A stretch of DNA of 64,000 nucleotides, taken from a virus. Taxonomy: Duplodnaviria; Caudoviricetes. The notes below the pieces were generated by a model. The model was not told the DNA's origin, did not search any database, and worked only from the letters and a program-made list of their open reading frames with translations. The DNA lies in the IMG/VR virus record IMGVR_UViG_3300037851_000284, positions 96,001 to 160,000 of that record; one strand, written 5' to 3'. Below, one piece after another: positions 6,537 to 64,000 of this stretch. Made by a program: the position numbers and the translations under genes. Every line of letters begins with the position of its first letter. Positions within the stretch are counted from its first letter, which is position 1.

Positions 6537-6537
6537 T

Positions 6538-11121: not shown

Positions 11122-11122
11122 A

Positions 11123-16084: not shown

Positions 16085-16101
16085 GAAACTATTCTAATTA
16101 T

Positions 16102-17097: not shown

Positions 17098-17366
17098 ATT
17101 TTAAATTAAGACACGATAGACTATTACTTACACCCATAGAAAAGACCAAAACTGAAGGAGGAATATTACTTCCTGATAATAACAATGACCCATGGATGTA
17201 TGGACTAGTTGAAGCGGTTGGGCCTAAAATAGAAGACATTAATATAGGAGATGTAGTATGCTTCTATAAGTGTGATGCTAATCGTATAGAAGTAGAAGGA
17301 AGAAGTTATATTCATTTGAGAGATGGACACATAGTTGGAATACAACTATCACCAAAGGAAGAATAA
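17094..17366 (+). CDS. groES: Co-chaperonin GroES/Cpn10
   Basis: DRLLL...KTEGGILLP mobile loop, GLVEAVGP, IGDVV, EGRSY...IVGI. Confidence 0.9.
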   Translation: MNFKLRHDRLLLTPIEKTKTEGGILLPDNNNDPWMYGLVEAVGPKIEDINIGDVVCFYKCDANRIEVEGRSYIHLRDGHIVGIQLSPKEE

Positions 17367-43746: not shown

Positions 43747-43758
43747 TTAATATTCCAA

Positions 43759-46943: not shown

Positions 46944-49237
46944 TATTGTGCCTCATAAAATAACTTAAATCCGCCTATATCAACATTACAATTTTTAAAT
47001 ATTCTAATTGTTGTTGATCCAACAGAATCATCAGCGCATGTAGTTTGTGATAATTTAATTTCCCTATACCAAGGGTCTGTTTCTTCTTTATAATAAAGTT
47101 TAAATGTTGGAACATTACTAGATATGTCATCCGGAGCATATTTAACTATAAAACTTTTACGATTTTCATTAAAATTAATATATTCTTTTCCAGTAAATTG
47201 ATATCCGTCTGCCTGAATTCTCAATTTTCCATCAATATCAAAGTCAAAATAAATATACTTGTCAAAGTAATCATCAAATAATTCTAATAATCTTCCGCTA
47301 CTTACTAGTCTTAACTTGCAATCAAATTGAAAATATGTTCCTTGTGATGGATACTGGTCGCTTACTTTAATATATGAGATATTATCTTTATAATAATAGG
47401 CTTCCCCATTTGTTTTAATCATTTTCTTTCCATAAGAATCGTTATAATTTATTTTATAAATAGGATATTCACCACTATATCTTAAGTCATTTCCGTTCGA
47501 ACTAACATCTGTTTCGATAAGGTTCCCAGAAACAGCAGTATCGAATAAACAATTAATTGAAGTGTGTCTGAATGTAGTAATCTGGGGCACAAATTCGTTA
47601 GAATATCCGGCATATAATTTATTAGTATTTTGATATAAAGGACCAGTAACTTGACCTTCAGAAAACTTCATTGGTAAATCAAAAGACATCTTATAAATTT
47701 TACTATAAGGTCTAACCTTTAATCCATCAAACGTTATTACTTTTGATGGTTCATTCTGATTGGGATCTTTTGTAAATTCGTATTCTAGTTCATTTAAAGT
47801 TCCGCTTTGATTGACAGTTGTAATAGGACTGCTAGTATGTAAAGAAATATAATTACTAGCTAAAGGAGAAGTTATATATCTGATACCATCATATGTTTTA
47901 TATTTATATTCAACCATATATCGACTATAGTATCCAGATATTTTTATTCGATTTGTAATTGATCCGGAACCATCAACATAAGTCATAGTTCCTTCGTCTA
48001 TCTTTCCGCTTTCGTGTAAATAATCCCAACTAGTAGTCTGTAGAAGAGTACAACCAGACCCTTCCATATTAGCACTGAATCCTTTTCCTGAAGGAACAAT
48101 TGAATCGTACCCTACATATATAGGGTCAAAGGCTCCATCAGCATCTCCAGAAGCCGTACCTAAAAACATTTTGCGGGATTTATAATAATATAAAGGTTTT
48201 CCAGTATATGGAATTTCTGTAGCATTTCCACTAGAATCGAGAATATCTATATCATATAGATGCATCGTTCCGCTAATAGGAATGTGCTCTAAATCTAAAT
48301 ACGCAACAGTATAATTATTATATCCATAGGGGTTATTATATGCTGTTCTATAGTAAATTTTGTTTCCGCCATTATCGTAATAATAATCTCCTGAATAATC
48401 CACTATAGCAACACCGCTTCCAGTTTCATCTTTAATCCAACCGTGGTAAGGAGTATAGTGGTCGATTACATATACTGTCCCGCTTTCATCTAGAACCTCT
48501 CTTGTAAGAGGATATTTACCACTTAACGTTTGACTATTAATAGGATATAAGAACTCATATTTATAAGTTCCAGAATATTGTTGGTTTTTAATTCCTGTAA
48601 ACATTCCATATATATAATTATAATCTCCAGTATGTGCAAAATTTGTACCTACATCGACCGCAAATACAGGATATAGTCCTGATTTAAATGCGGTTTCTTG
48701 GTCTATATCGCTAGATATAACTAGATATCCTGACCCTCTTTCATCTGACCTAATGTATTCTAAACCCATAAATCCGGTTAATGTAGACCAACATTCTTTA
48801 TTAAATCCTATATCGAACCCATTATCAAATCCTGCTCCGGAAGCAACCAATATTCCGGTATAGGTTGAATAATACATAGGTATTCTTACAGAACCAGTAT
48901 TAATAATCCTAGTTGGACTTCCGTCATAGAATTCGTTTTCATTAGTAATCTTAATTGGTATTGATCCGGAAGCATTTATAAAATTAGTAATAGGAACACC
49001 AGATATTGTAGCAGAATAAAGAGTTAATTCGTTAGATAAATCAAACGAGTTAATAAAAGAATTATTATATAACTCTTTCATTTTTTTATTAAGATAATCA
49101 AGTTCTACTCCATATAATAAGTTTATATATTTATAACCGTTAGAATTTTTATCATCAGCCATCTTAAAACTTGGAGGTAGAATAGCTTTGATTATTCGTT
49201 CAGTGCATTCCGCTTGTTTTGGTTGTTTTGTAAACAT
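46943..49237 (-). CDS. Putative baseplate wedge protein directly downstream of J
   Basis: Position after the J-like gene, helical N-terminus, beta-rich body; 22 SG dipeptides. Confidence 0.55.
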   Translation of the reverse strand: MFTKQPKQAECTERIIKAILPPSFKMADDKNSNGYKYINLLYGVELDYLNKKMKELYNNSFINSFDLSNELTLYSATISGVPITNFINASGSIPIKITNENEFYDGSPTRIINTGSVRIPMYYSTYTGILVASGAGFDNGFDIGFNKECWSTLTGFMGLEYIRSDERGSGYLVISSDIDQETAFKSGLYPVFAVDVGTNFAHTGDYNYIYGMFTGIKNQQYSGTYKYEFLYPINSQTLSGKYPLTREVLDESGTVYVIDHYTPYHGWIKDETGSGVAIVDYSGDYYYDNGGNKIYYRTAYNNPYGYNNYTVAYLDLEHIPISGTMHLYDIDILDSSGNATEIPYTGKPLYYYKSRKMFLGTASGDADGAFDPIYVGYDSIVPSGKGFSANMEGSGCTLLQTTSWDYLHESGKIDEGTMTYVDGSGSITNRIKISGYYSRYMVEYKYKTYDGIRYITSPLASNYISLHTSSPITTVNQSGTLNELEYEFTKDPNQNEPSKVITFDGLKVRPYSKIYKMSFDLPMKFSEGQVTGPLYQNTNKLYAGYSNEFVPQITTFRHTSINCLFDTAVSGNLIETDVSSNGNDLRYSGEYPIYKINYNDSYGKKMIKTNGEAYYYKDNISYIKVSDQYPSQGTYFQFDCKLRLVSSGRLLELFDDYFDKYIYFDFDIDGKLRIQADGYQFTGKEYINFNENRKSFIVKYAPDDISSNVPTFKLYYKEETDPWYREIKLSQTTCADDSVGSTTIRIFKNCNVDIGGFKLFYEAQ

Positions 49238-49248
49238 TTAAATCCTTA
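49238..49248 (-). promoter_or_regulatory. Shine-Dalgarno-type site TAAGGATTTAA overlapping the upstream stop
   Basis: The same TAAGGATTTAA string precedes the 51035..51802 gene. Related GGA(G) motifs precede most spaced genes. Confidence 0.6.
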
Positions 49249-50499
49249 AGCTATACAAACACTAATAAGTCCTTGATCTGTATACCACTTAGATAAACTA
49301 TCAGCTCTTTGATTTTGAAATCTTAATACTATTTGATTTCTATTTATTTTATTAAAAATATCATATTCTCCATATTTAAATGACCTAGGAATAATATCAT
49401 CAACTCCTGCAACATCCATAGAAACATCTATTATCCTATTCCAAACTATCTCTCCTCCAATTGGGAGGTCGTTAATATATTGAATAATAGAACTTCTTAC
49501 CTGTTGTCTTATTATGTTTTCGTCTGTAACTCCAATAGAAGGCACTATTCCTAGGTCTAATTCTACTCCATAATAAGTTGGTCTATTTACATAAATAGTG
49601 TCACCATACGATAATTCTTGTTGTATTTTTTCTTGTACAGCATCTATCAATCCTTGAGATATAAGAGGAGAGACTCCATCTATTACTATATTTACTGTTC
49701 CATTACCAAATTTATTCTTTTCGAATAGTATATCTCGTATTCCAGGAACACTTAATGCTGCTCTTCTAATTGATAACTCGTTAGCTCTTATAGCACTTCT
49801 TGAGGTTGCTATTTTATATCTAAATTCTTCGTCGGTTAAAGAATATTTACCATTTTGAATAGGAAATCTGTTTGAACATTTAATATATTGGGAAATCTTT
49901 CTTAACTCAGGGATAGATGCTAACGTGTGAGCCACTAATACATTTGTTTGAACATTGGCTGCTGGACCAGAACTTGACGCTATTACTCCAACATAAGTAT
50001 CACTATTAGTTAAATGGGCAGCTTCTATAGTCGTATAAGATATTGTTCCATCAAAATTTTGTATTACAGTATCCTTAGGAATTATGATTTCTGTTGGTTC
50101 TCCGTTATTATCCAAACTCATAAATCCATTATTAACCAAAGTATTTCTTTCCACGTTTGTATAAGTTCTTTTAATCATAGGGGACAAACTCATATTTATT
50201 CTAGGATCTATATAAAAATAAAAGTTAGTCTTTGAGTAATCAGAAGGAGTTACGGCATCAGTACGTGTCTCGCCAACTAGATATCCTATTTTATCTAAAT
50301 CTGCTCCTGTTGCTCTGGTGGGATCAATAGCATTATAGATATACTCCATACTGTCATAATATCTTTCGAGTTCAAGACCAAGTATATCTAATAATGCTTT
50401 GCTAATGCCTTGAGCATTAAAATTATTTACAGGAGTATTCCTTTCAAGTCTAGTTTTTCCGTCTGTAACAACATCAATATAATTTCGTCTAACTGCCAT
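49246..50499 (-). CDS. Baseplate J-like protein (T4 gp6/P2 gpJ/Mu gp47 family)
   Basis: ATGADLDKIG, IPKDTVI...YTT, GPAANV, TDEEFRY, AALSVPGI, GNGTVNIV, YINDLPIG. Confidence 0.88.
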   Translation of the reverse strand: MAVRRNYIDVVTDGKTRLERNTPVNNFNAQGISKALLDILGLELERYYDSMEYIYNAIDPTRATGADLDKIGYLVGETRTDAVTPSDYSKTNFYFYIDPRINMSLSPMIKRTYTNVERNTLVNNGFMSLDNNGEPTEIIIPKDTVIQNFDGTISYTTIEAAHLTNSDTYVGVIASSSGPAANVQTNVLVAHTLASIPELRKISQYIKCSNRFPIQNGKYSLTDEEFRYKIATSRSAIRANELSIRRAALSVPGIRDILFEKNKFGNGTVNIVIDGVSPLISQGLIDAVQEKIQQELSYGDTIYVNRPTYYGVELDLGIVPSIGVTDENIIRQQVRSSIIQYINDLPIGGEIVWNRIIDVSMDVAGVDDIIPRSFKYGEYDIFNKINRNQIVLRFQNQRADSLSKWYTDQGLISVCIA

Positions 50500-50510: not shown

Positions 50511-51035
50511 TTAATTAAGGAAATTTTCTCTCATAGAAGTCAAATATTTATTTGGTCTTTTCATATTTGAAATATCATTAATTTTATAATTAGTAGTCGA
50601 GATAGGATCTAACACTCTACTATCATATTTATTAAATTTGCTTATACCGTTAATAAAATCAAAATCGAATATAAGGGAATCTACTTCATAATTCTGCATC
50701 ATAATATCAACAAAAATCATTATACTCTCGTAACCAGTAGGAACTACTCTTACCGAAACTTGTCCTGGAAATACAGTATCTTTTAATCCATCAGTTAGAA
50801 AAGATTCTATTCTTTTTCCTACTTCTCTGGTATTTTGAGACCCTGTAAATACATTTGGTGTACATCCAATTTTAGGAGAAGCTTTCCAGTCTCCAGGTTC
50901 GGTTATTAATAATTTATATATTTCTCTCTCTATATAATCTATACCGTTAGATAACATTAGGTCTCCGTTTTCGAAGTGGAGATCGGTATCGTATCCAAGT
51001 AAAACATCCCACATACCAGTATATATCTGATTCAT
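50511..51035 (-). CDS. gp25/gpW/Mu gp46-like baseplate wedge subunit
   Basis: DLHFENGDL...L.TEPGDW...IG pattern; sits between the spike-like and J-like genes. Confidence 0.72.
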   Translation of the reverse strand: MNQIYTGMWDVLLGYDTDLHFENGDLMLSNGIDYIEREIYKLLITEPGDWKASPKIGCTPNVFTGSQNTREVGKRIESFLTDGLKDTVFPGQVSVRVVPTGYESIMIFVDIMMQNYEVDSLIFDFDFINGISKFNKYDSRVLDPISTTNYKINDISNMKRPNKYLTSMRENFLN

Positions 51036-51802
51036 TATGTTAGTACTCCAGCTGCTTTATCTATTACTTTCACAACTTGTCGTACTTTAGTTGCTCCGTT
51101 TGCTATTTGAGCCACTAATGATAAGTTAGGATATTCTGGAAAAGAGATAGGAAAAGTTACTATAGTTGAAGGTATAAATCGTTGAAGAGTGTTATCCATC
51201 ATTATTCCTCTTTGATGTTCTGAACTTTCCCAAGAAACGTTTCCGGCAATATAAACTCCTTCTTTCCCCATAGTAATTGAGGAACCAATTGATTTTATTA
51301 GAATTGTGCCGTCTTTATTAATAAAGATACCAACACTTTTATTCGAAAGATTTTCTTTTGATTCAGTATTAGTATAGTCTCCCTCTAAAGGAGGAGAAAT
51401 AGCCACAGATACTTTATCTAAATCAAACATATTTGTCTTACTTATAGCAAATCCTGCCCCTCCAGAATTTGGATTTGTAACAGAAACAGTCTGTTTTTTA
51501 GGTACACACCAAACTAGACCAAAAGGAAGGTCTGCCAAAGTTCCCTTATCATCCAATATTCCAGGAAGAAAATTCTGTCTTTCAGGAGTAACACATCTAG
51601 TTTCTAGTAAAGATTCATCATTTGTTACAACTATAGCAACATGATGTTCTGGACTAGGAACTATGTGCCCTCCAAAATATTTAAAATCATAATAGTTCTT
51701 ATTATGTTTAATTCTTATAACTTTATGGCGGTCATTATAATAATTAATCTCAGATATAGAAGCGCCATAAGCTTTAAGTTCGTATCTATTTTCATTAGCC
51801 AT
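51035..51802 (-). CDS. Putative baseplate central spike (gp5/gpV/Mu gp45-like)
   Basis: Position after the hub; beta-solenoid-like GIFINKDGTILIKS..SSITMGKEGVYI. Confidence 0.5.
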   Translation of the reverse strand: MANENRYELKAYGASISEINYYNDRHKVIRIKHNKNYYDFKYFGGHIVPSPEHHVAIVVTNDESLLETRCVTPERQNFLPGILDDKGTLADLPFGLVWCVPKKQTVSVTNPNSGGAGFAISKTNMFDLDKVSVAISPPLEGDYTNTESKENLSNKSVGIFINKDGTILIKSIGSSITMGKEGVYIAGNVSWESSEHQRGIMMDNTLQRFIPSTIVTFPISFPEYPNLSLVAQIANGATKVRQVVKVIDKAAGVLT

Positions 51803-51811
51803 ATTAAATCC

Positions 51812-54800
51812 TTAATATGCCCAAGGAACGATTTGTTTATATAAGCCGTAATCTTTTGGATTCCAACCAGTAGTAGCATTTGCTTTAAATATGTCTCTAT
51901 AAGCCATATATTGTGTAATCGGTTGGTCTTTCATATCGGCTACGTTATGGTTCATTAATGTTTTTAAACTGGTATAATCAATACCATCAAATCCTGCCAT
52001 ATAGGGCATTCCATGATATAATAATGATGTGAAATTAATACAATCCCTACCCATAATATGCCCCATTTGGTCAAAGACTGCTTTATGATATTTTTTAATA
52101 GTTCCTATAGTACTATTATATACCTGCGTAACAAAACCTAAAGCAAGATAAGCTGGCTCTAAAGGAAAAGCACTACTAAATATTGACCTAAAATTAATAA
52201 AATCATATATTTGATTAATAGTTTGAACGTCTTGTACCTGAACAGGGTCTCTATCGTAAGTAATTAGATTGGGAGTTATTACTGTTCTAAACCCCCTATC
52301 AGGAGTGAAAGTATGAATTACTTCTTCTACCTCAACAACTCCATGCGTGTCGTTTGTATAATCCTGTATATGTAATATATCAAATGGTTTAATTGCTGGA
52401 TTACCTATAATTTCTATAGTTCCTTGGTACATTTTTTCAACTTCGTTCTTTAATAGGTTAACTCCTACTACAACGAAAGAAGGAAATCTATCCCATCTAG
52501 GGATATTTATATCACCAGCATTAGAACTATTATCTTTAGGATTAAATTTTTCCCTATGATAATCCTCAAAGAATTTAGTAGTTTTGGAATGTATATCAAA
52601 CCAGTTAGTATCTATATTTTTTTGATAACTATTTAAAGGTCTAGATGATTCGTCCTTTTGTTCTCCAAAGGCTTTGACCGTCCATAGACTTAGTTTTTTA
52701 CTAATATACTCGTCGTCCATATTATCTAGACTTGCGTTTTTAATCTTAGGTTCCCCAGTATAATATACGTTAACTAAGTTAGAAAAGTTACTATTTAAAG
52801 ATATATTATTAGCTATTATATTAGAAGTATCAGTAACTAAATGATGTGTTTGAATTTTTTTATACTGAGGATTACTTAATAATCTCTTATCAGTATTTGA
52901 GAATCTGTCCTGAACAGCATAAAACAACTCTGGTGTAAGAGGAGGAGATTTTGCGAAATTCTTAAGTCCTATTCTACTTTTTTGGGTTAATCCTTCTCCG
53001 TGTATTATGTTTAAGAATAACGCTAATCTAGGACCATAATTATTTCCTTCAGAAAAATTATAAGTAGATAATTCGTTTTCTGGAATAGGAGGAAGATTAC
53101 CAAACTTTATTAGATTTCCAACTAATTTATTAGTAGACGTATCAATAATCTTATTATTAGAAACCATATCCATTAGATTACTATATATATCAATTGAAGA
53201 ACCAACAGCCTGTGTTTGACTTAAAACATAGGCCGCCATCACAAGACAATTTATTCGATTCTGTAAGAAACTATATAATTTTCTTCCATTAGGGGTAAGA
53301 GTTATAGTAGGAGTTAGAACAGTTGTATATAAATAACTAAATACTATAATTTGACCTTTGTCGTCTTTGATTAGCGAATCAAAAGATGTATTTACGGCTT
53401 TTATTGATTCCCAAGTCTTTATAGCTTCTTCAACTTCTCTTATATTTAAACTAGATATACTGAACGCATCAGTATATTTATAATATCCTGCTTTATCTCC
53501 TATTACTAAAGTTTCTCTAATATGATTATTATTTGATAACGAGTCGTCATTAAAAGATTTAACAGTAACAATTTTATTTCTATGATATAAAGTAATTTCT
53601 TTTAAAGCATCCCACACGCTTTGATTAAATACTACCCAATCAAAGGTAGGATGATGATATATGTTAGTATTAGAACTATAATTTAAATATATATTTTCGT
53701 CTCTTGGATTATCCTGAGCAAAAGTTAGCGAAGAGGTAGCACCAATAAGATTACTTAGTAATAATCTATCTCCGAATTTTCCCCTAACATTACGAATATT
53801 TTTTCCTGTAAATGGTTGAATTCCATTAGCTAGACCAAACATCTCTGTTTTACCAAGTTTCTCTAATCCAGGAATTAAATCAAGTATAGCGGAAGCTACA
53901 TCACCGTGTTCTCTAGATGTTGATAATAGACCGAATTTCTCTGCTACTATTTGATGATTAAGCTGGGCGCCAAAACTTTGACACACCAATTCTACATTAG
54001 GCCCATTGTTCATTTCTATTATTCTTCCTTGGAATACAGAAGTTAATAGATTATCATAGGGAGCATAACCCATTTTTATTATTATACCTGTTCCAGGTTT
54101 AAGGTCTAGTGTTCCAAAGAACAGATTATCAGGCTCGCCTTTTTGACCTATAGAGTAACCAAACAACTTCTCAGATTCTCTTAATAGAGACATTCTATCT
54201 GTAAGATTACCAGTAATGTTACTTAATCTAATAATAGCAGTAGTGCTCGGAGAATTTTTATTTGATATTATCTCTATAGACTGAATAGCATTATGAGTAT
54301 AATAATCATCAAAGTTTCTAATTAATCCTTTATCTTCTTCGACAAAAAAGATCTTAAAGGTAGGAAACATTTTAATAGTAGTATTTTTATTTAGGTTATC
54401 ACTATTATTAAAATCTTTTAGAATTTTAACTTTTCTATCATTTTCTTCTTGGGTTCTGAAATTCCAAAAATCTAGATAACCTATTTCTGGTATGGTTGAA
54501 AAATCTATATTTTGTTTACCATTTGGCGCAGCAACAGCGTCTTTAAGAACAGTATTTAATCTAATAAAAAACCCTATTTTATTGTACAAATAGTTTTCTA
54601 ATCTATAAATTCCAGGAAGAGCTACAAACTTTTCGTTATAAGTTTCAGCTAATCCATTAACATTTTGACTTCTTAAATGTTTTGCAATCTCTTTTTGTTC
54701 TTGAGTTATATTTTTCTTACTAGTATAATTTGTCTGTTCCAATAACTCAGAAGTCATATTTTCAGCATTTATTAATATGGATTCTATAACCGAATGTAGT

Positions 54801-57800
54801 TTTTGTATACTGGCTTCTTCCGTTGTACCCTTAGATAAGAAAGATTGATTATCATACTTAGAATCGGTTCTATTTGCCTTATTATTTTTATATAAAACTT
54901 GTTTAATTAAGGTATTTTTGTTAATCTTTTTAAGCATATAATCATTAATGACATTATAAACTTCCATTAATTCTATAAGAGTCTTCATTCTAGCAGTATA
55001 GATAAGATTAAATTTTCTAACATCCATGTTATCAGCAACTAATCCTTTAGAAGATTTTTCTAATTTAGCTTGTAGACGTTTTCTTTCATTAACATAATCT
55101 TTATTATTTTTATTGTTTTTATCGAAATCGTTTAAAATTCTTTGATTTACATCACTTATTATTTTCTGCTCGTTTACATTATTTTTACACATAGAAATAA
55201 CATCTCGTGTATATTTTAATATGTCTATTAATTGATCAATACTATCAGTATTAAACATAGTATTTAGATCTGATGTAATAATTTTTGAAGCAGAAGTTTT
55301 AACCTCGTCTTTTAGATTAGAAGAGTTGTTAATTAATTGATTATATCTACCCAATAACTCAGATGCTTCTGTAAAAGTCATCATAGCACATAATTTACCA
55401 ACCTTAGCATATCTCTTTAAAGAAGCATCAATATATATTCTCTTCTCGACTCCATCCATAATTGGATTAAATAAATAAAAATCAGGACCAATAATAATAT
55501 CATTATTATAAATTGGAATATCAAAGTCGTTATAACAATTTAGTGGAGTTAATTTTCTATTAGCTTCTATAGATTTATATGTTGGTTCTCCAACTATATC
55601 AGGAGTTATAAACTTATTATATACTGTTGGATCCCTTAAAATTTTCTCTGAAAAATCCCTGAATATATTATTAGCAAATTCATCTTCTAGTGAACTAAAG
55701 AACGAATCAAACTTATTGATTAATTTTTCCTTAACTTCTCCCTGTAAGGATTGGACAAATGTTTTTAAAAAAACATTACCTAAATAGTTTGAAAATCCTA
55801 ATACCGTTCCAAATATAGACAATTGAACGGCGTTAGGAGCTTTTAAATCGTGAGTAGCATAGTAAACCATCTTTTGGAAGAAAGTTCTATTTGGTTCGAT
55901 GATAAGTTTAATAGCTTCACTTTTTTGATAAAGCAATACATCAAGTCTTGATAATATATAATCAATTATTTTTCTAAATTCAGGAGAGTTAGAAACTAAA
56001 TTATTAATAGCTTCTGTCGAAATTGTATCTATTTGTTCTTCTATGTCTAATTGCTCTTTTAGACCGTTCTTTATTTTTTGAGCTGTTTCTGCTCCAATAA
56101 TCGACGACCACTGACTTGTTCCCGCTTGTGGAACCGTTGATGTTGAAGTATAAAAAGGAATAAACCTACTAATTCCTTTGGTAGCACTGCTTTCTTTTTC
56201 TGCTTGTTTAATATATTTTTCAATACTATCTCCATACACTTTTAAAAATCTTATTCTAACAAGTTCATTAAGAGTTAGTTGTAATTCTTCAGATTTGATA
56301 TTTTCCGGAGTTTTGGATTTCTTTAAATATTTTACTACCTTGAAATTTTCTCCATTTCTTTCCAATCGTGCTATTATATTAGCTATTTGTTCTACGGCTT
56401 TATCATTAGTGGGAACCCTAGATATATTGTGATAATCAGATATAGTAAAGTTAGCTTGCGTAAAATTTACAGTAGTATTCCACGAATTAGGCTGACCGTC
56501 TATAGTAACAGTATTAGAAGAATCAAATACTACTTTTTTTATACCAAAACAATTAAATATAAATCCTTGTCTTTCTTCGTTATTATCAGTAGGAGCAAAT
56601 ATGGTTAGTCTACTATCTAAATAGGTTGCTAATTCTGGAGCCGTCATCATTATAATCTTTATCGAGTCTCTTAGTCTTGTGGATAATAACGATAATTGGG
56701 TTTTTAAATCATCTGTAACATCTGGTTTTTCTGATGTAGAAGTTATAGATAATGATAATACAGCATCATCAGAACCTATATGCTGATAATAAGGTTGATC
56801 ATAGGCCTGTAAATTTATTGGTACAAATTTATTAGAGAATATTAAAGACCAATCGGTTATAATATCTTTTCTATTATCTATTTCTACTGTATATTCTTTT
56901 AATGGAAGCCTATTTACTTTAAAAATATCATTATCTGAGGAAGGAGAAATTACTAATAGATTAGAATCTTCTCCTGTAAATTCAGATATAATTGATTGTG
57001 CTATAATTTTCATACATGCTGAGAAGTCTTTTCTTCTCTGGCCTGTGGAATCAGCACTAATCCACTCGAATATTTTATTTATTTCAGCATCAAGAGTTCT
57101 TACACCAAACCCATTATCGATTCCTTTATTAACTGAGTTGTACGTTAATAAAGTTTTAAGTCCTACGGCGTCGCTCCCAGCCACTGAAAACTTCCCCTGT
57201 ATTAAATTCCAAGTATCTTGTGTTGCTTCCAACATCGGACTTAATCCAATTTTAGCTAATCCTCCTTGAATAAAATAATCCAGCAAGTTTCTTATAGGGT
57301 GATCGTCTTGAGTATCTAGAGTGATATTATATCTTGCTAAAATTTCTGGAATCTGATTAGTGATTGCGCTTATCTTAGCTGTATTAAATTCAAAAAAATC
57401 TTTTGTAGTATAAAAAGTATTTACTAATTCTTTCCATAATTCGTCTCTATTAGTTGTGGCATTATATAAGGTTGTTAATTCAGATAACAATCTTTCTTGT
57501 TCGGTCAATCTTTGTTCTGATATAACTTTACTTATTGTTGAAAAATCATCACTAATAGCTCTGTATTTAATATATACAGGAACTTTATTATCTTCCTCGT
57601 TATATTCGTGTAGTCTGTTTTCAGGATTAGTTGGTCTAAATTTTGTAATATCGTATGAAGATGATACTCTACTTCCATCACTAGAAACTGGGTATATAAC
57701 TTGGCCTAAATTGTCTTTTATCTCGGTCCTTTCTGCAATTAAGGATTGATAAAATGCCCTGAATGGTAGACTGTTTCTAAAATCATAATCGCTTCTAATA

Positions 57801-58861
57801 CTTCCTATAATTAAATCCGAAAACCTTTCTGGAACAACCGATTGTTCATATAATTTTGCTTCAGATTTTCTTATGATATCATCTAATTCCTTATTCCTGT
57901 ATAATAATGCCTGTTGTCTTTCGACATCTCTCATAGATAATAACGCGGAAAATTTTTCGGTGATTCCGCGACAATCAAAAGGAAGAATAGTAATTGCTGC
58001 TTGTAGGGTATTAGGAAATCCTCGTACAGATTGTATTTGTATACTCTCTAGAGCTATTGAAAGCCACTCATCTTCATGTAATAATGTTTTAAAGAAATTA
58101 CATATATCTTTGTTTCGAAGATTAACGAAAGGAGCGCGTCTATACATCGCGTATAAATTTAATAACTGATAATTAATTGAGTCTTGATTTGGAAATATAA
58201 GAGTTATAGATATATTTTTTACCTGTCCGACCGTCGGAATTTTAGGGTTACCTTGAGTTCTAATTGTCGGAAAATACTGGTATCCATTTTGAGTATTAAA
58301 TGATATTTGAGTAGGATCAACTAAAAATATTAAGTCTCCTATTTGGAGGGCACCGTCTCCTAAAGAATCAAAAATGATATCATTATCAGCATCTTGAATA
58401 CGTACTTCTTTTTCATCTAGAATTCTATGCGTTTTATTATCAGTACTTTGAACTATTTCCATTGATATTTTTTTAATTCTAGATTCTAATTTATCATCTA
58501 CAAGTTTAATAGGACGAATAACATTAAATTGTCTCATTCCGTCTACTATAAAATTATTTATTATTGAATCTGGTATTCTAGGCCATGTTGTCGGAGGTTC
58601 ATAAGGAACTGATTGAGTTACAACATAAAATTTATTTGCAACTAATATGTCTCCTCCTTGAATAAAATTAACACAAACTTTATCATATAAATTTACATCT
58701 ATTCCAAGATATTGTTTATAAACTTCAGTTATATAGTGATTTATATTTGTAGATTGAGTATTAGTATCATTACTTGAATAAGCGGTTTTAAGTTCTTTAT
58801 AAGGACTTTTATTTGTTAAAATGTAATTTAGAGTGTCGCCTATAACTTGTGGATCTATCAT
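51812..58861 (-). CDS. Very large baseplate hub-like protein (gp27/Mu gp44/gpD-type domains in the C-terminal third)
   Basis: IQSIEI...TAIIRLSN...LKPG..I.IKMGY...VFQGRI...ELVCQSFG, and YQGTIEIIGNPAIKPFD...EVEEVIHTFTPDRGFRTVITP. Confidence 0.72.
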   Translation of the reverse strand: MIDPQVIGDTLNYILTNKSPYKELKTAYSSNDTNTQSTNINHYITEVYKQYLGIDVNLYDKVCVNFIQGGDILVANKFYVVTQSVPYEPPTTWPRIPDSIINNFIVDGMRQFNVIRPIKLVDDKLESRIKKISMEIVQSTDNKTHRILDEKEVRIQDADNDIIFDSLGDGALQIGDLIFLVDPTQISFNTQNGYQYFPTIRTQGNPKIPTVGQVKNISITLIFPNQDSINYQLLNLYAMYRRAPFVNLRNKDICNFFKTLLHEDEWLSIALESIQIQSVRGFPNTLQAAITILPFDCRGITEKFSALLSMRDVERQQALLYRNKELDDIIRKSEAKLYEQSVVPERFSDLIIGSIRSDYDFRNSLPFRAFYQSLIAERTEIKDNLGQVIYPVSSDGSRVSSSYDITKFRPTNPENRLHEYNEEDNKVPVYIKYRAISDDFSTISKVISEQRLTEQERLLSELTTLYNATTNRDELWKELVNTFYTTKDFFEFNTAKISAITNQIPEILARYNITLDTQDDHPIRNLLDYFIQGGLAKIGLSPMLEATQDTWNLIQGKFSVAGSDAVGLKTLLTYNSVNKGIDNGFGVRTLDAEINKIFEWISADSTGQRRKDFSACMKIIAQSIISEFTGEDSNLLVISPSSDNDIFKVNRLPLKEYTVEIDNRKDIITDWSLIFSNKFVPINLQAYDQPYYQHIGSDDAVLSLSITSTSEKPDVTDDLKTQLSLLSTRLRDSIKIIMMTAPELATYLDSRLTIFAPTDNNEERQGFIFNCFGIKKVVFDSSNTVTIDGQPNSWNTTVNFTQANFTISDYHNISRVPTNDKAVEQIANIIARLERNGENFKVVKYLKKSKTPENIKSEELQLTLNELVRIRFLKVYGDSIEKYIKQAEKESSATKGISRFIPFYTSTSTVPQAGTSQWSSIIGAETAQKIKNGLKEQLDIEEQIDTISTEAINNLVSNSPEFRKIIDYILSRLDVLLYQKSEAIKLIIEPNRTFFQKMVYYATHDLKAPNAVQLSIFGTVLGFSNYLGNVFLKTFVQSLQGEVKEKLINKFDSFFSSLEDEFANNIFRDFSEKILRDPTVYNKFITPDIVGEPTYKSIEANRKLTPLNCYNDFDIPIYNNDIIIGPDFYLFNPIMDGVEKRIYIDASLKRYAKVGKLCAMMTFTEASELLGRYNQLINNSSNLKDEVKTSASKIITSDLNTMFNTDSIDQLIDILKYTRDVISMCKNNVNEQKIISDVNQRILNDFDKNNKNNKDYVNERKRLQAKLEKSSKGLVADNMDVRKFNLIYTARMKTLIELMEVYNVINDYMLKKINKNTLIKQVLYKNNKANRTDSKYDNQSFLSKGTTEEASIQKLHSVIESILINAENMTSELLEQTNYTSKKNITQEQKEIAKHLRSQNVNGLAETYNEKFVALPGIYRLENYLYNKIGFFIRLNTVLKDAVAAPNGKQNIDFSTIPEIGYLDFWNFRTQEENDRKVKILKDFNNSDNLNKNTTIKMFPTFKIFFVEEDKGLIRNFDDYYTHNAIQSIEIISNKNSPSTTAIIRLSNITGNLTDRMSLLRESEKLFGYSIGQKGEPDNLFFGTLDLKPGTGIIIKMGYAPYDNLLTSVFQGRIIEMNNGPNVELVCQSFGAQLNHQIVAEKFGLLSTSREHGDVASAILDLIPGLEKLGKTEMFGLANGIQPFTGKNIRNVRGKFGDRLLLSNLIGATSSLTFAQDNPRDENIYLNYSSNTNIYHHPTFDWVVFNQSVWDALKEITLYHRNKIVTVKSFNDDSLSNNNHIRETLVIGDKAGYYKYTDAFSISSLNIREVEEAIKTWESIKAVNTSFDSLIKDDKGQIIVFSYLYTTVLTPTITLTPNGRKLYSFLQNRINCLVMAAYVLSQTQAVGSSIDIYSNLMDMVSNNKIIDTSTNKLVGNLIKFGNLPPIPENELSTYNFSEGNNYGPRLALFLNIIHGEGLTQKSRIGLKNFAKSPPLTPELFYAVQDRFSNTDKRLLSNPQYKKIQTHHLVTDTSNIIANNISLNSNFSNLVNVYYTGEPKIKNASLDNMDDEYISKKLSLWTVKAFGEQKDESSRPLNSYQKNIDTNWFDIHSKTTKFFEDYHREKFNPKDNSSNAGDINIPRWDRFPSFVVVGVNLLKNEVEKMYQGTIEIIGNPAIKPFDILHIQDYTNDTHGVVEVEEVIHTFTPDRGFRTVITPNLITYDRDPVQVQDVQTINQIYDFINFRSIFSSAFPLEPAYLALGFVTQVYNSTIGTIKKYHKAVFDQMGHIMGRDCINFTSLLYHGMPYMAGFDGIDYTSLKTLMNHNVADMKDQPITQYMAYRDIFKANATTGWNPKDYGLYKQIVPWAY

Positions 58862-58864: not shown

Positions 58865-59047
58865 TTATTCCTTAATCTTGTCTATATTAACAGGATTTAT
58901 AGAAATAGGGTCATCGACTTCCCTAATCGAAATTACTGTTTCTAATCCAGTAATATTAGATACTTGATCTTTAATAGTTTTAATATAGGTATTATAATCT
59001 ATTCCGTCAGGTAAGTCTATGATAATAGAGGCTCTTATAGAACTCAT
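58865..59047 (-). CDS. Small hypothetical protein
   Basis: 60 aa; its ATG overlaps the upstream TAA and it ends 3 nt before the hub start. Confidence 0.55.
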   Translation of the reverse strand: MSSIRASIIIDLPDGIDYNTYIKTIKDQVSNITGLETVISIREVDDPISINPVNIDKIKE

Positions 59048-62000
59048 TATCCATATTTCCTATCCAATTGTGATGAACCAAAGCTTGGTATACTTGTAGT
59101 ATAGTTAGAATATATAAGGTTCGGCTTTGTTTTCCACTCATTTAACAACGGGTTAGAATTACTATAAGAGTTCTTTAAGATATTATTTATTATATTACTA
59201 CGTTGTTTTTTATCATTCATTTTGTTTAATCGTATAAATGCTTCTTTTGAGAAGGAAGCATTAACGGTGTCCAAAGGAACCCGTCTATCAAGTTCTAAAT
59301 CAGATAGTATTCCGTTATGATTTCCATTAATATCAGAACCTAAATCAACAAACCCGTCTAGAGGATTTAATGAATTAGACATTTGGTTTGGTCTAAAAAA
59401 ATTAGCAGCTAGAAATACTGCCGCTCCTATAGCTCCAAATTTTCCAGTAGTTTTAGTAAAATTAATTGCTCTAGGATATTCTCTTAGAATCCTTGATCCA
59501 AAGCTTTCTGCTGCCTCATTAAAATTAATGTTTTCATAAGGCTCGCCTATTTTAAGTTTATCTAATATACTAATAGCTTTATTCAGTTCTGTTTGTTCAC
59601 TAATCCAAGCCTTTGATTCTCCCTTTGTTCCAAACTTTTGATGATATTTTATTATTCCTTCAGTTAATAGTTGATGAGCCTTATCTCTTTCTTCGTTTGT
59701 TTCAAAATAATCAGATAAGATATCCTTTAACGCTAAACGTGTCTCTGGATTTTTATTATATGGATTTGTTAATGCTGCTACTGCTAAAGAAATTCTCTTA
59801 ATTTTATCGACTCCGTGCTTAATCATGCTAATTGGTAGTTGTTCCATTCCAGCCAATCCAGTAGTTAATGATGTTCCTATAAACTTATTTAAAGTAAGAG
59901 TGTTATTTTTAGATAAGCTATCCATCTGCATTATTTGTCTACCTCTGGTTTCTAATATATTTGTGAATATACCAACTGCTCTTTTAGAAACAGACATCAA
60001 GGCTGATTCGTCCACCATCTTTTTAACTATATCATTAGTAACTACACTTGGATCCCTAGTTGAAATTTTTTCAACCATATCTATTAGATTTCTAAAGTTT
60101 CCTTTAATAGCATCTTCTGCGTCTTGACTTCCTAGTTCTACGGTTTTCTCGCTAATTCTTCCCGTTTCTCTATCAAAATATCCAACTCTAGCTTTTGAAT
60201 TTTCAAAACCAATAATTTTTCTTTGTTCACTTATAGCATCTCGAACCGTTTTAAATTTACCGTTCTCTTTTATCTTAGTATTTAATATATCAATAAATGA
60301 CCTGTTAACAGATTCGTGTAAGTTTAACAATTCTTTTTCTGTATTAAAAGCATGTACCACTCCAAACATTTGGTCTCCGTCAACGTCTCCTCCAACCAAC
60401 TTCCAATATTCTGCAGCAACTGCTATTCTATTAATATCCATTCCAAAATAACTTGCTATTTCTTTAGGAACAACATTGAATCTAGCTGTTAAAAAAGGAT
60501 TGGTTCCAGAAGGAGTATAAGGAGGACGAGTAATAAAACCAGTAAATTTTCTATGCATCCATGCTCTATTTTTAATTTCAGAACCGAACACATTACTTAT
60601 TCTATCATAAAAATTTTTGGTTTGGAGAAATTCAGATTCTTTAACATCAAATTCGAACTTTTTAAAAGTTTCTTCATGAACCATAACATCATGTAGTGAA
60701 AAGTCATTAACTACGTTTCTAGTCCACTTATCTAGAAACTCTGCGTGCTTTCCTTTAAATCCTCTTGCTCCCCAACCTTCAGAATCCATAATATCTTTAA
60801 GTCTTAAATATAAAGAATTAGCATCTTGAGCAGAAGCAGCAAACCCTTGAGGAAGATGGAGGTCTGTTTCAGAATTATATACATGCCTTAGTAAATATGT
60901 AAGATATTGTTTTTTAAGGAAATCTACAGATTCGCCAACAACCTTAGAATCTTCTTTTTTCATATTTTTTTCTGCCATCATATATGCAAGAAGAACATCA
61001 TCCATTAATTTAGTACTTCTGGTAGAAAATCCAAAAGCTGTTCCCTTTTTATTCTCCTTAGATACTAAGTTAATAACATTTTCGTGATGAGCAGGAGCTT
61101 CCATTAAAAGATATTTTAATTTAACAGTCTTATTAGTTTTATCAACTTCTGCTACAAAACTATCTTTCTTTTTCTTTAGTTTATCAAAGATATTTAATAC
61201 TTCATCCGTAGATGGCAATTCGTCTTTTGTGGCAATTTGATGTAACAAGCTCTCTATATCTAGAGTTATTGTATTACCTAATTTAGGATTAACTGATAAT
61301 GCAAACACTCCTTTCTTTTGAGCTAACATAGCTCTTTGTTGCGCCGATTCTAAAGACATAATAGTTCTGTTCTTGGGATCTATTACGGCTTTAGCAAAAT
61401 TATCATTCTCCATATCATCAATTATTTCTCCAGCAACCTTTAACTTTTCTTCTTCAGAATTCTCATTAATAATATCAGATACTTTTTCAATTAATTCATT
61501 TTTTTCATCGTCTCCAAAATTATATCTTTTAAGTGCTTCTAACGATAATCCTTTTTTAATATCTAATATATCATCTATCTCCTCCAGACTTAACGTTTTC
61601 ATTGTGCCAATATTAATCATTTTTAACTGGAGTCGCCTAAAGGATCTAATAGCATCTCCAAGTTTACCAGATATTCTATGTGCTCTAGCCATTTCTATTA
61701 TCTTTAAAGAAGTAGTATCTAATGCTCCCAGATGGGCTTTTTGTAATATATTTCTTCTTACTTTTATACGCGCGGGTCTAGCTTCAGTCCCATTCATTAT
61801 AGCATAAAAACTAAATCTATCAGGATGTTCTATTCCTATATCCCATTTTCCTCTACCTTTATATTTCTGTCTTGCCTCAAATAACATAGGAACTAATTTA
61901 CCTGTTCTAATAGCTTCTAAATCCGGTAAGATTAATTCATTATAGAAAGTATTATCGAAAGCTTTGTCCTTAAAAACGGCGCTAGCCAATCTAGCTGATT

Positions 62001-64000
62001 TGTTTTCGTCTTTAGATATTTCTTCAAGATAATTATTATATATGTTGCGTATGTTCTTTTTAGCGTTTTCTACTCCACCTAAAGCATTATAATAATTTTC
62101 TGCCCTTTCTGTCGTCCAAACTTGTCCAGTATCGATCATGAAAGATCTTAATTCTTCAGTAGTTAGAGAAACGTTTCCAAAGAATTTATGAGCAGCATTA
62201 ATCAAATTAACATCAGTAACGTTAGGAAACGAGCCAAGATGCGACGACCGATGTATAGGTATTTTGGTTATATCATGTATATCGGAATTCATCTTTGCCG
62301 CCCAATATTTAAGCTTTTGTTCGGCTACTACTTGTTCTTGAATAGTACCGTTTTCCATTACATTCAGCAAGTGGTCAAATCCCTTCATAACAGTAATGGT
62401 TTTCATTGGTCCAACATAACCCTTCTCTAGAAACTGGGCTGGACCAAATCCCTGCACTCCACCATACATTTTTTCTCGGGTAATCATATCCATGAATACA
62501 GATACTGCTTTACCACTAAGTCCTTTACCAACCATTGATACCCTATCTTTATCCGTGATAACATATTTGATATCAGCCATCATTTTAATAGAACCAGCAC
62601 TATCATTCCAGATATTTAATTTAGTAATTCTTCCATTAACAGGAGCATTAAAACTAATTTTTCCCAAATCTCCTCTCGAAGCCATATACTTTGTTCCCTT
62701 TGGAATTTTTGTAAGTCCTTCGTTTTCCTGTATAACTTCATAAGCCGCATAGTCATAATCGTCCTTGGTTAGAGCACTACCTTTTTTACTTTTAATTACT
62801 CTTAACTTTTCTTTAATCTTTCCCTCAAGTTTAAGAACTTGATAATTAAAACTAGGATCCTCGGCCCTAGAAGAAACATCAGAAAGATTAACTCCTATAT
62901 CAGTATGCTCAAGATTAACATCTTTAAATATTTCAGAAGTAAGATGATGTCCTCCTTCTTGGCTTCCAAAGTTAGAAATAGTTGAAAAATATTTTACCAT
63001 AACTGTATTACTAAATAAATGAGTCATAGCATCTGCGTCTCTGCCAAAACTCATAAAGTCTAATTCTCCTCTAGATATCCATGGAGGGATAATCTTACGG
63101 GCATATTTTCTTAACACGAGAGGATCTAATCTTTCATTCATGGATTTGCTATGTAGACCAGCGACTACAGCAGAAGTTCCCATCATAAATTGGTTAGCTT
63201 GTTTTGCTGGAGGATAATCTGGAATGGGTAAAAAATGTCTAGTAGTAAATATAGAGAAAGCATATTTAGCCGCTTGACCAGAAGATAATGCTGTAGAAGA
63301 AGGAATAAATCCAAATAAGTTTGTCATTTCTATATCTCTAGCATCTTTTATTTGGTCGTCAAACGACTTAAATGCGTGATAAGAATTATATTTATATTCT
63401 AACTCTTCATATGCCGAATCAAATTGTTTTTTTCCTTTATGATATTTTTCCAATTCGTGACCTAATAATAAATGTAATAACATACTGTCGGTTCCAGCAT
63501 CGTGAGCAAATAGAGTTTTGTCATTATTTAATTTTTTTAATAAGGCAGTACTAACCACTAAATTACTTTGTGGTCTACCTCTCAAAGTATTTATTGCTTC
63601 TATAATATTATTACTTGTTTCAAAATTATGAGCAGATAAACCTTTTTCTTTCATCATTAGCTTTAATAAATTAGTTTGAGACAATGACTCTACTCCACCA
63701 ACCACTACTCTATTAATTTCTACAATTCCATGAACGTCTATATGACTAATATTAGCATATTTTTTAAGTTTGCTAAAACCGATGGGGTCCTTAGATTCTA
63801 AAATTTCAAGCATTTTGAAATCGTAATAGGTTCCGAATTTAGAAGTAAGATATATAGGTTTGTCAGGATTTTCTTCAACAACCCTGATTATTTTTTCTAC
63901 CAAATGTCTTGCGATATCGTTGTTATCTTTAAAATCTCTTCCCTGAGTTTTTGTTAACGATTTTATTTTTTCTCCCCATTTGTTAATAATATCTTCTGGG
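59047..64000 (-). CDS. Large (>=1650 aa) putative two-barrel RNA polymerase / tape-measure-position protein; 5' end outside window
   Basis: Frame is open to the window edge (PEDIINKWGEK...HLVEKII). Contains ITRPP followed 47 codons later by LVGGDVDGD (DxDGD at 60373-60387), and a hydrophobic GAIGAAVFLAANFF near the C-terminus. Confidence 0.65.
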   Translation of the reverse strand, partial: PEDIINKWGEKIKSLTKTQGRDFKDNNDIARHLVEKIIRVVEENPDKPIYLTSKFGTYYDFKMLEILESKDPIGFSKLKKYANISHIDVHGIVEINRVVVGGVESLSQTNLLKLMMKEKGLSAHNFETSNNIIEAINTLRGRPQSNLVVSTALLKKLNNDKTLFAHDAGTDSMLLHLLLGHELEKYHKGKKQFDSAYEELEYKYNSYHAFKSFDDQIKDARDIEMTNLFGFIPSSTALSSGQAAKYAFSIFTTRHFLPIPDYPPAKQANQFMMGTSAVVAGLHSKSMNERLDPLVLRKYARKIIPPWISRGELDFMSFGRDADAMTHLFSNTVMVKYFSTISNFGSQEGGHHLTSEIFKDVNLEHTDIGVNLSDVSSRAEDPSFNYQVLKLEGKIKEKLRVIKSKKGSALTKDDYDYAAYEVIQENEGLTKIPKGTKYMASRGDLGKISFNAPVNGRITKLNIWNDSAGSIKMMADIKYVITDKDRVSMVGKGLSGKAVSVFMDMITREKMYGGVQGFGPAQFLEKGYVGPMKTITVMKGFDHLLNVMENGTIQEQVVAEQKLKYWAAKMNSDIHDITKIPIHRSSHLGSFPNVTDVNLINAAHKFFGNVSLTTEELRSFMIDTGQVWTTERAENYYNALGGVENAKKNIRNIYNNYLEEISKDENKSARLASAVFKDKAFDNTFYNELILPDLEAIRTGKLVPMLFEARQKYKGRGKWDIGIEHPDRFSFYAIMNGTEARPARIKVRRNILQKAHLGALDTTSLKIIEMARAHRISGKLGDAIRSFRRLQLKMINIGTMKTLSLEEIDDILDIKKGLSLEALKRYNFGDDEKNELIEKVSDIINENSEEEKLKVAGEIIDDMENDNFAKAVIDPKNRTIMSLESAQQRAMLAQKKGVFALSVNPKLGNTITLDIESLLHQIATKDELPSTDEVLNIFDKLKKKKDSFVAEVDKTNKTVKLKYLLMEAPAHHENVINLVSKENKKGTAFGFSTRSTKLMDDVLLAYMMAEKNMKKEDSKVVGESVDFLKKQYLTYLLRHVYNSETDLHLPQGFAASAQDANSLYLRLKDIMDSEGWGARGFKGKHAEFLDKWTRNVVNDFSLHDVMVHEETFKKFEFDVKESEFLQTKNFYDRISNVFGSEIKNRAWMHRKFTGFITRPPYTPSGTNPFLTARFNVVPKEIASYFGMDINRIAVAAEYWKLVGGDVDGDQMFGVVHAFNTEKELLNLHESVNRSFIDILNTKIKENGKFKTVRDAISEQRKIIGFENSKARVGYFDRETGRISEKTVELGSQDAEDAIKGNFRNLIDMVEKISTRDPSVVTNDIVKKMVDESALMSVSKRAVGIFTNILETRGRQIMQMDSLSKNNTLTLNKFIGTSLTTGLAGMEQLPISMIKHGVDKIKRISLAVAALTNPYNKNPETRLALKDILSDYFETNEERDKAHQLLTEGIIKYHQKFGTKGESKAWISEQTELNKAISILDKLKIGEPYENINFNEAAESFGSRILREYPRAINFTKTTGKFGAIGAAVFLAANFFRPNQMSNSLNPLDGFVDLGSDINGNHNGILSDLELDRRVPLDTVNASFSKEAFIRLNKMNDKKQRSNIINNILKNSYSNSNPLLNEWKTKPNLIYSNYTTSIPSFGSSQLDRKYG

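What the first reader, a model, noticed from the sequence alone, without database searches (positions are those of the whole stretch)
51812..58861. Zero SG dipeptides in the 2349-aa hub protein
Seen: I found no SG in the whole protein although S and G are both common; a handful (roughly 5-8) would be expected by chance. The J-like (1), gp25-like (0), spike (1) and polymerase-like (4 in 1618 aa) proteins are also low. Inference: proteins that are buried, must pack precisely or must pass a channel avoid the motif, which is the mirror image expected if SG is a modification signal.
Basis: partly seen in the sequence, partly recalled or inferred. Interest (0 to 1): 0.6.

Follow-up and report, generated by a model that had tools for sequence, protein, structure and literature searches.

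The report
Phage hub protein lacking Ser-Gly pairs
The giant central baseplate protein of this uncultured 219-kb freshwater phage really contains no Ser-Gly pair, but comparison with about 150 related hubs shows this is mainly the extreme low tail of one small lineage and not demonstrable avoidance of a sugar-attachment signal.

Summary
The count is correct. Residues 1480-2349 fold like the T4 gp27 / Mu gp44 / VgrG central baseplate hub. The effect is at protein level and specific to SG. The nearest relatives are also SG-poor (O/E 0.1-0.4), and SG ranks first of about 300 dipeptides for depletion specific to that lineage.

The "mirror of a modification signal" reading is not supported:
- 107 further hub representatives average O/E 0.90 with plain Poisson scatter.
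- Five relatives with the same core glycosyltransferase and equally SG-rich outer proteins have normal hubs (42 vs 46.7).
- Hub SG level does not correlate with the neighbours' SG excess (25 pairs, rho about 0).
- New SG sites arise in the query's clade at the usual relative rate.

The robust signal is the threefold SG excess (S-G-hydrophobic-hydrophobic, before beta strands) in the sheath and distal tail proteins. This scan has noted that excess before in other phage genomes. The hub's zero is most likely drift on top of a mild under-representation in core proteins.

The parts
51812..58861 (-). 2349-aa baseplate hub gene; 0 SG against 7.7 expected
   Evidence: phrog_20474 E = 4e-36; 31% identity over 10% of its length to the 0305phi8-36 gp147 hub
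51815..54424 (-). Hub residues 1480-2349: the conserved core with a gp27 / Mu gp44 / VgrG-like fold
   Evidence: AF2 model pLDDT 62.7, pTM 0.66. Foldseek probability 1.00 to contractile-injection-system, phi812, Mu gp44 and T4 gp27 hubs, E down to 1e-9
53804..53809 (-). Residues 1685-1686 read TG, where most of the family has SG (F-S-G-K-N)
   Evidence: S, T and N alternate at this site in several clades
53486..53491 (-). Residues 1791-1792 read AG, where most of the family has SG (D-K-S-G-Y-Y-K)
   Evidence: S, A, G and T alternate at this site in several clades
51035..51802 (-). 255-aa protein in the gpV/spike position; SG 1/1.6; orthologues 3/7.8
50511..51035 (-). 174-aa protein in the gp25/gpW position; SG 0/0.8
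49246..50499 (-). 417-aa Baseplate_J protein; SG 1/1.9; orthologues 7/10.6
   Evidence: PF04865 E = 9e-19
46943..49237 (-). 764-aa SG-rich distal baseplate/fibre protein (22 vs 5.8). All 65 homologues carry 10-25 SG
44832..46943 (-). 703-aa SG-rich protein (18 vs 4.5)
42181..44823 (-). 521-aa and 354-aa SG-rich proteins (12 vs 2.7 and 12 vs 4.7)
34035..35930 (-). 631-aa SG-rich protein (18 vs 3.8)
59047..64000 (-). RNAP-like giant in the tape-measure slot (2250 aa, runs off the window); SG 5/9.2; orthologues 21/37.9
17366..18523 (+). GT4 glycosyltransferase, the only sugar gene conserved in all 5 relatives examined
   Evidence: Pfam PF00534/PF13692/PF20706; 37-63% identical orthologues in G001-G005
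1..17097 (+). Nucleotide-sugar biosynthesis and tailoring island; most of its genes have no orthologue in the five relatives

Best explanation
The protein is the central baseplate hub of an uncultured contractile-tailed jumbo phage. It has a gp27 / Mu gp44 / VgrG-type core at residues about 1480-2349, behind a long N-terminal extension. The phage family uses Ser-Gly in two ways. Outward-facing, beta-rich virion proteins (the sheath insertion region and the distal baseplate and fibre proteins) carry about three times the expected SG. There it takes the form of an uncharged x-S-G-hydrophobic-hydrophobic turn-to-strand junction, and the count is kept across the whole family. Core proteins do not use this idiom and sit slightly below expectation (0.55-0.9). 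The hub's fall from that baseline to zero is confined to the query's own small lineage. It is best explained as stochastic loss: the few shared SG sites were lost by ordinary S-to-T and S-to-A changes, and the Poisson tail did the rest. It is not best explained as enforced avoidance of a modification sequon. Shown: the count, its protein-level and SG-specific nature, the hub fold, the family-wide excess in outer proteins, and the lack of coupling between hub depletion and either GT presence or neighbour enrichment. Inferred: that drift, not selection, produced the zero.
For: (1) In the superfamily, 107 hub representatives that are mutually under 50% identical have SG O/E 0.90 with chi2/df 0.89. 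That is pure Poisson scatter with no second depleted population. At that baseline P(0) is about 0.001, and about 14% of samples of 150 hubs would contain one such value. (2) Hubs of five relatives that share the core GT4 total 42/46.7, while their outer proteins are as SG-rich as ours (O/E 2.3-3.9). (3) Hub O/E does not correlate with neighbour O/E: rho = 0.11 for 11 loci and -0.005 for 24 contig-matched pairs. (4) Distinct SG sites per unit of tree, relative to eight control dipeptides, is 0.60 in the query's clade against 0.55-0.75 in the other clades. New SGs therefore arise at the usual rate, and only shared sites are missing. (5) The two family-conserved SG sites that read TG and AG in the query also switch S/T/A/G repeatedly in other clades. 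(6) SGs in hubs have unbiased flanks, with charged residues at 1.0-1.18 of expectation, whereas in SG-rich proteins charged residues are at 0.29-0.53. There is no selective purge of sequon-like SGs. (7) P0020 and P0024 nest inside the depleted clade yet have normal counts (10/10.8 and 7/10.9).
Against: SG is the single most depleted dipeptide in the query's monophyletic clade (44/99.8) and ranks first of 288-344 dipeptides for depletion relative to the distant clade, about 2.5-2.8 empirical SD. It is the same dipeptide that is most enriched elsewhere in the genome, a coincidence of roughly 1 in 300 under pure drift. The nearest sisters are 47-54% diverged yet all carry only 1-4 SG against 8-10 expected. 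In this genome the other late proteins that are not SG-rich are also lower than their orthologues (49/69.3 = 0.71 against 0.99, P = 0.009), while early proteins are not. The three giants together have 13 against 30.8 expected (P = 2.5e-4). The nearest clade combines the lowest hub values with the highest neighbour values (3.8-4.2).
Confidence: 0.55

Rival explanations
1. Sequon avoidance. A phage glycosyltransferase (the candidate is the family's core GT4) O-glycosylates serines in S-G turns of outer virion proteins. In the query's lineage the hub and other core or injected proteins have been purged of SG because a glycan there would disturb packing or passage through the tail.
For: The depletion is lineage-specific, SG-specific and at protein level, and ranks first of about 300 dipeptides. 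Late proteins of this genome that are not SG-rich are lower than their orthologues, while early ones are not. The giants as a class total 13/30.8. The GT-less outgroup 0305phi8-36 shows neither enrichment nor depletion. The preference for Ser over Thr before the conserved Gly (about 75-80% S, 7-8% T) resembles the Ser-only heptosylation of autotransporters, where one of the two mapped sites is followed by Gly (PMC4358343).
Against: The same GT4 and the same SG-rich outer proteins coexist with normal hubs in five relatives and across the upper clade. There is no correlation across 25 pairs. The tolerated hub SGs show no context bias. The SG gain rate in the clade is ordinary. Nothing shows glycosylation, and I found no paper describing an SG sequon for phage virions.
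Confidence: 0.25
2. A lineage-specific structural cause. The query's clade has remodelled the hub's loops, for example with fewer glycines (104-120 against 130-158) and shorter loops, so the backbone contexts that accept S-G have been lost.
For: Hubs of the near clade have fewer glycines than distant ones. The hub core is a mixed alpha/beta fold unlike the all-beta SG-rich proteins. The hub family as a whole is mildly SG-poor (0.65-0.79).
Against: Expectations already correct for composition, including local composition. TG, NG, DG and AG are all at expectation in the query. S/G-rich linkers contribute almost none of the SGs in distant hubs.
Confidence: 0.15
3. A DNA-level cause: avoidance of a nucleotide motif, such as a restriction site or slippery sequence, that coincides with Ser-Gly codon pairs.
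For: None found.
Against: SG-coding hexamers occur 5 and 6 times in the two other frames of the hub gene, against 1.4 and 4.9 expected from codon shuffles. The same hexamers (AGTGGA, TCTGGA and others) are abundant in neighbouring genes.
Confidence: 0.02

Closest known systems
Central baseplate hub proteins: T4 gp27, Mu gp44, P2 gpD, T6SS VgrG, and the giant hub gp147 of Bacillus phage 0305phi8-36
   Same: Same fold in the C-terminal 870 residues. Same gene position, between the tape-measure-slot gene and the gpV-, gp25- and gpJ-like genes. There is weak sequence similarity to gp147.
   Different: About six times longer than gp27 or gp44, with a roughly 1480-residue N-terminal extension of unknown fold. 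No recognisable lysozyme or peptidase domain, unlike gp147 and the more distant hits P0046-P0048. It has zero SG, whereas gp147 has 16 against 12.5 expected.
Autotransporter heptosylation by TibC/AAH (BAHT family; PMC4358343)
   Same: Serine, not threonine, is modified in turns of a beta-rich surface protein, and one of the two mapped sites is followed by Gly. The enzyme is cytoplasmic and has a GT-B-type fold, as a GT4 does.
   Different: A different enzyme family. Modification is demonstrated there and entirely unproven here. I know of no report of sequon avoidance in non-target proteins for that system.
Mycobacteriophage virion O-glycosylation (Che8, Corndog, Myrna; Freeman et al. 2023). 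This is recalled from my own knowledge and from earlier notes of this scan; I did not read the paper here.
   Same: Phage-encoded glycosyltransferases decorate virion proteins.
   Different: As I recall, the targets there are capsid and tail-tube C-terminal Ser/Thr-rich extensions, not dispersed SG turns. No counter-selection in other virion proteins is described.
Ser-Gly excess in phage tail and fibre proteins, noted earlier in this scan on other genomes (e1-5844004, e1-5660689, e1-5930044, e1-5636368, e1-5761538)
   Same: The same two- to threefold SG excess in outer, beta-rich virion proteins of uncultured phages that carry sugar islands.
   Different: Those notes concern the enrichment. 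This finding concerns the opposite tail in a core protein, which those notes did not test.

Membership tests
Central baseplate hub (gp27 / Mu gp44 / VgrG-like) | gp27-type hub fold | tested here: met
   The model of residues 1480-2349 (pLDDT 62.7, pTM 0.66) matches Anabaena CIS, phi812, Mu gp44 (9ki1_G, 1wru), T4 gp27 (1k28_D) and VgrG at probability 1.00, TM-score by target up to 0.68. The model is of moderate confidence.
Central baseplate hub (gp27 / Mu gp44 / VgrG-like) | Gene position between the tape-measure-slot gene and the spike, gp25 and gpJ genes | tested here: met
   The order is 2250-aa giant, hub, 255 aa, 174 aa, Baseplate_J. This matches 0305phi8-36 gp146-gp151.
Central baseplate hub (gp27 / Mu gp44 / VgrG-like) | Sequence similarity to annotated hubs | tested here: met
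   phrog_20474 E = 4e-36. tblastn to the hub genes of 0305phi8-36, WH1, Edson and KLEB27-3 gives 30-32% identity over about 10% of the query. No Pfam or PDB sequence hit.
Tail-associated lysin (hub with a peptidoglycan hydrolase domain) | A recognisable lysozyme, SLT or M23 domain | tested here: not met
   No Pfam family at E <= 0.01. The PHROG label 'endolysin' comes from other members of that family.
Protein O-glycosylation sequon system | A glycosyltransferase and sugar supply are encoded | tested here: met
   GT4, GT1-like and Nucleotid_trans genes, epimerases/dehydratases, C-methyltransferases and radical SAM enzymes. The GT4 is conserved in 5 of 5 relatives.
Protein O-glycosylation sequon system | A glycan is demonstrated on the motif's serine | not testable with these tools
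   This needs mass spectrometry of virions or of co-expressed proteins.
Protein O-glycosylation sequon system | Depletion of the motif in non-targets tracks the enzyme and the strength of enrichment in targets | tested here: not met
   Hubs are normal in GT4-bearing relatives (42/46.7). rho is about 0 over 25 pairs. Hub SGs show no context bias.
Protein O-glycosylation sequon system | No enrichment or depletion in GT-less relatives | tested here: inconclusive
   Only one very distant GT-less relative was available. 0305phi8-36 has no PF00534 or PF00535 match, and its tail module totals 61/56.3 with the hub at 16/12.5. This is consistent with the idea, but n = 1.
Structural Ser-Gly turn idiom of beta-rich proteins | SG lies in inter-strand loops just before a strand, with uncharged and hydrophobic flanks | tested here: met
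   In the model of the 764-aa protein, most of the 22 SGs lie 0-3 residues before a strand start (low confidence, pLDDT 60). Hydrophobic residues are at 1.39 and 1.68 of expectation at +1 and +2, and charged residues at 0.29-0.53.

The most novel reading that the evidence does not exclude
Ser-Gly turns are the acceptor sites of a phage-encoded, serine-specific O-glycosyltransferase (the family's core GT4) that coats the sheath and distal tail proteins with a strain-specific glycan. In the query's lineage, core and injected proteins, the hub above all, are under purifying selection against accidental acceptor sites. That would be the first case of sequon avoidance in a virus of bacteria.
Probability: 0.2. 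Interest if true: 0.75.

Novelty: not a real feature. Interest (0 to 1): 0.25.

Why it matters
If the zero reflected selection, it would be indirect but strong sequence evidence that SG serines are modified in vivo, and that phage proteomes are shaped by their own modification enzymes much as genomes are shaped by restriction-site avoidance. The comparative data do not show this. They do give a usable baseline for any later claim of this kind: hub proteins sit at SG O/E 0.9 with Poisson scatter. They also confirm that the robust signal in this phage family is the conserved SG excess in outer virion proteins, for example all 65 homologues of the 764-aa protein. That excess is the feature worth testing experimentally.

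Tried and rejected
- No genome of the nearest clade (contigs of P0001-P0004, P0009, P0010) could be fetched. I substituted contig-length matching between protein searches.
- **Single-protein locus search:** The search for related loci with the single hub protein found nothing. The alignment-based scans gave 26 loci, none from the nearest clade.
- **Replicate on the RNAP-like giant:** the search returned only one homologue, P0050 with 7/12.1 SG, too few for a clade test.
- **Local-composition and S/G-rich-linker explanations:** rejected.
- **DNA motif avoidance:** rejected.
- **Paralogy among SG-rich proteins** as the source of the excess: no BLAST-detectable paralogy.
- **The TG and AG replacements** at the two conserved SG sites as evidence of avoidance: rejected, because the same switches recur across the family.
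- **My first "near clade" of 7 sequences** (16/62.4, P = 3e-12) was chosen after seeing the counts. I replaced it with monophyletic clades and an empirical null, which reduced the signal to about 2.5-2.8 SD.
- **Literature:** searches found no SG sequon for phage virions.
- **Sequence search of solved structures** with the hub profile gave nothing useful.
Full report
**The observation.** The ORF at 51812-58861 on the minus strand encodes 2349 residues with 175 Ser and 104 Gly but no Ser-Gly pair. Composition predicts 7.75. The probability of zero is 4.3e-4 by Poisson and 2.8e-4 in 200,000 shuffles. Zero never occurred in 2000 codon shuffles. Expectations from 50- to 400-residue windows are 6.4-7.7, so separate S-rich and G-rich regions are not the cause. 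GS, TG, NG, DG and AG are all at expectation, so only SG is missing. SG-coding hexamers occur 5 and 6 times in the other two reading frames, at or above expectation, and are common in neighbouring genes. The effect is therefore on the protein and not on the DNA.

**Multiple testing.** SG is the most depleted of the 400 dipeptides in the hub. It is second among 3191 protein-by-dipeptide tests over the 219-kb genome, where about 1.4 results this extreme are expected by chance. On its own it would not survive an agnostic scan. However, SG also gives the five strongest enrichment signals in the genome, so treating SG as pre-specified is legitimate.

**What the protein is.**
- The genome is one 219,054-bp contig at 33% GC.
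- The hub matches phrog_20474 (E = 4e-36) and, weakly, the hub genes of the Bacillus jumbo phages 0305phi8-36, WH1, Edson and KLEB27-3.
- The gene order is giant, tape-measure-slot giant, hub, 255 aa, 174 aa, Baseplate_J. This is the order of 0305phi8-36 gp145-gp151.
- A model of residues 1480-2349 (pLDDT 62.7, pTM 0.66) matches central hubs of contractile systems at Foldseek probability 1.00. The hits include Anabaena and Algoriphagus CIS, phi812, Mu gp44, T4 gp27 and VgrG.
- No lysozyme or peptidase domain is detectable.

**The wider SG pattern.** Fourteen late proteins carry 193 SG against 65 expected (P = 2e-37). About 30% of their glycines follow a serine. NG and DG are not enriched, and TG only slightly (1.25). 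These proteins include the tail sheath (16/5.9, with 11 of the 16 SGs between the two conserved core segments) and the proteins distal to the J-like protein. The tube paralogues, portal, protease, terminase, hub, spike-like and J-like proteins are not enriched.

The motif is extended. Charged residues are excluded at -1, +1 and +2 (0.29-0.53 of expectation), and hydrophobic residues are favoured at +1 and +2 (1.39 and 1.68). In a low-confidence model of the 764-aa protein, most SGs lie in loops 0-3 residues before a beta strand.

The excess is conserved. All 65 homologues of the 764-aa protein have 10-25 SGs (O/E 3.33), and every relative's downstream block shows O/E 2.3-2.9. Eight to ten sites per protein are positionally conserved and many others turn over. 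When the Gly is kept, the residue before it is Ser in about 75-80% of cases. The SG-rich proteins are not detectable paralogues of each other. This excess has been noted before in this scan on other phage genomes.

**Is the hub's zero more than chance?** Forty-five full-length homologues at 33-51% identity total 305 SG against 458 expected (0.67). There is a gradient: the closest relatives have 1-5 against 8-10 expected, and distant ones are near 0.8-1.0. On the tree, the query's monophyletic clade has 44/99.8, the lower half of the tree 0.54 and the upper half 0.79. Using all other dipeptides as an empirical null that shares the same tree, SG ranks first of 288-344 for lineage-specific depletion, at 2.5-2.8 SD. 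So there is a moderate signal, real at roughly the 1-in-300 level.

**Evidence that limits that signal.**
- A profile search of the 50%-identity representative library finds about 2000 hub relatives. For the 107 new long ones, SG O/E is 0.90 with chi2/df 0.89. This is plain Poisson scatter. The lowest value is 1/6.4 and none is zero.
- At that baseline the query's zero has P about 0.001. Roughly one sample of 150 hubs in seven would contain such a value.
- The nearest clade collapses to very few 50% clusters, so it provides few independent observations.
- Relative to its sisters' rate, the query's zero has P about 0.1.
- A tree-aware count shows that distinct SG sites, relative to eight control dipeptides, are as frequent in the query's clade (0.60) as in other clades (0.55-0.75). 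The clade lacks shared, persistent sites, not new ones.
- The two family-conserved SG sites (F-S-G-K-N and D-K-S-G-Y-Y) read TG and AG in the query, but the same S/T/A/G switches recur in several clades.

**Is it the mirror of a modification signal?**
- The window holds a large sugar island: epimerases/dehydratases, C-methyltransferases, two radical SAM enzymes, three GT-like genes and two inteins.
- Most island genes have no orthologue in five relatives with long contigs. The GT4 at 17366-18523 is present in all five at 37-63% identity.
- Those five relatives have SG-rich outer proteins like ours and yet normal hubs, 42/46.7.
The nearest clade does combine the lowest hubs with the highest neighbours.
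- The SGs that hubs tolerate show no bias away from the S-G-hydrophobic-hydrophobic context.

- In this genome the late proteins that are not SG-rich, hub excluded, are at 0.71 against 0.99 in their orthologues (P = 0.009). Early proteins are unchanged.
- The three giants together have 13 against 30.8 expected.
- The inner trio (spike-like, gp25-like, J-like) in relatives totals 31/45.3.
- The only GT-less relative available, 0305phi8-36, has no PF00534 or PF00535 match. It has neither enrichment (tail module 61/56.3) nor a depleted hub (16/12.5).

**Conclusion.** The count is right, and the class difference between outer and core virion proteins is real. The step from "core proteins lack the SG idiom" (O/E about 0.6-0.9) to "the hub avoids SG" (0) rests on one small lineage. 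It is not coupled to the features the modification hypothesis requires. I rate drift on a mildly SG-poor background at 0.55, sequon avoidance at 0.25, a lineage-specific structural cause at 0.15 and a DNA-level cause at 0.02. Whether SG serines are modified at all cannot be decided from sequence. The closest documented analogue is serine-only heptosylation of autotransporter beta-helix turns, where one of the two mapped sites is followed by Gly (PMC4358343). I found no paper describing an SG sequon on phage virions.

**Limits.**
- Gene calls are my own longest-ORF calls.
- Both structure models are of modest confidence.

Noticed in passing
G000 161802-170261 (window 65802-74261, beyond the window end); locus L080: The 2819-aa giant upstream of the RNAP-like giant carries a Cas4 / PD-(D/E)XK-type exonuclease match at residues about 2209-2342 (phrog_1706, 2506 and 1990). 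That places a nuclease domain in a tail-module giant protein.
   Followed up: no
G000 177473-180238 (L082:7473-10238, minus strand): The tail sheath is SG-rich (16 vs 5.9). Eleven of its 16 SGs lie in residues 311-478, between the two conserved sheath-core segments, which is presumably the exposed insertion domain.
   Followed up: partly
window 175-1899 and 6526-8697 (+): Two sugar-pathway genes contain inteins: a 4,6-dehydratase/epimerase-like gene, and a B12-binding radical SAM gene whose intein carries an HNH nuclease (Pfam Intein_splicing and HNH_3).
   Followed up: no
window 17366-18523 (+): The GT4 next to the ClpP-like protease gene is the only sugar gene conserved in all five relatives examined (37-63% identity). 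The upstream island of roughly 16 kb is almost entirely lineage-specific. No close homologue exists in cultured phages (best hit 26% identity, in Microcystis phage Mel-JY01).
   Followed up: partly
whole genome, plus-strand early genes (G000 1-115000): The dipeptide Pro-Gly is strongly depleted in the early proteins (25 vs 63 expected, P = 3e-8) and less so in late proteins (0.47-0.73 of expectation).
   Followed up: no
G000 171233-176127 (L082): Three tail-tube paralogues of 769, 365 and 148 aa match phrog_9206, which is labelled 'major head protein'. They correspond to the 'tail tube paralog' genes of 0305phi8-36. None is SG-rich.
   Followed up: no
hub superfamily, proteins P0051-P0184: The giant-hub superfamily is large, with 2073 representatives at E <= 1e-3 in the 50%-identity library. 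Many are 2000-3900 aa, and almost all come from uncultured sources.
   Followed up: partly
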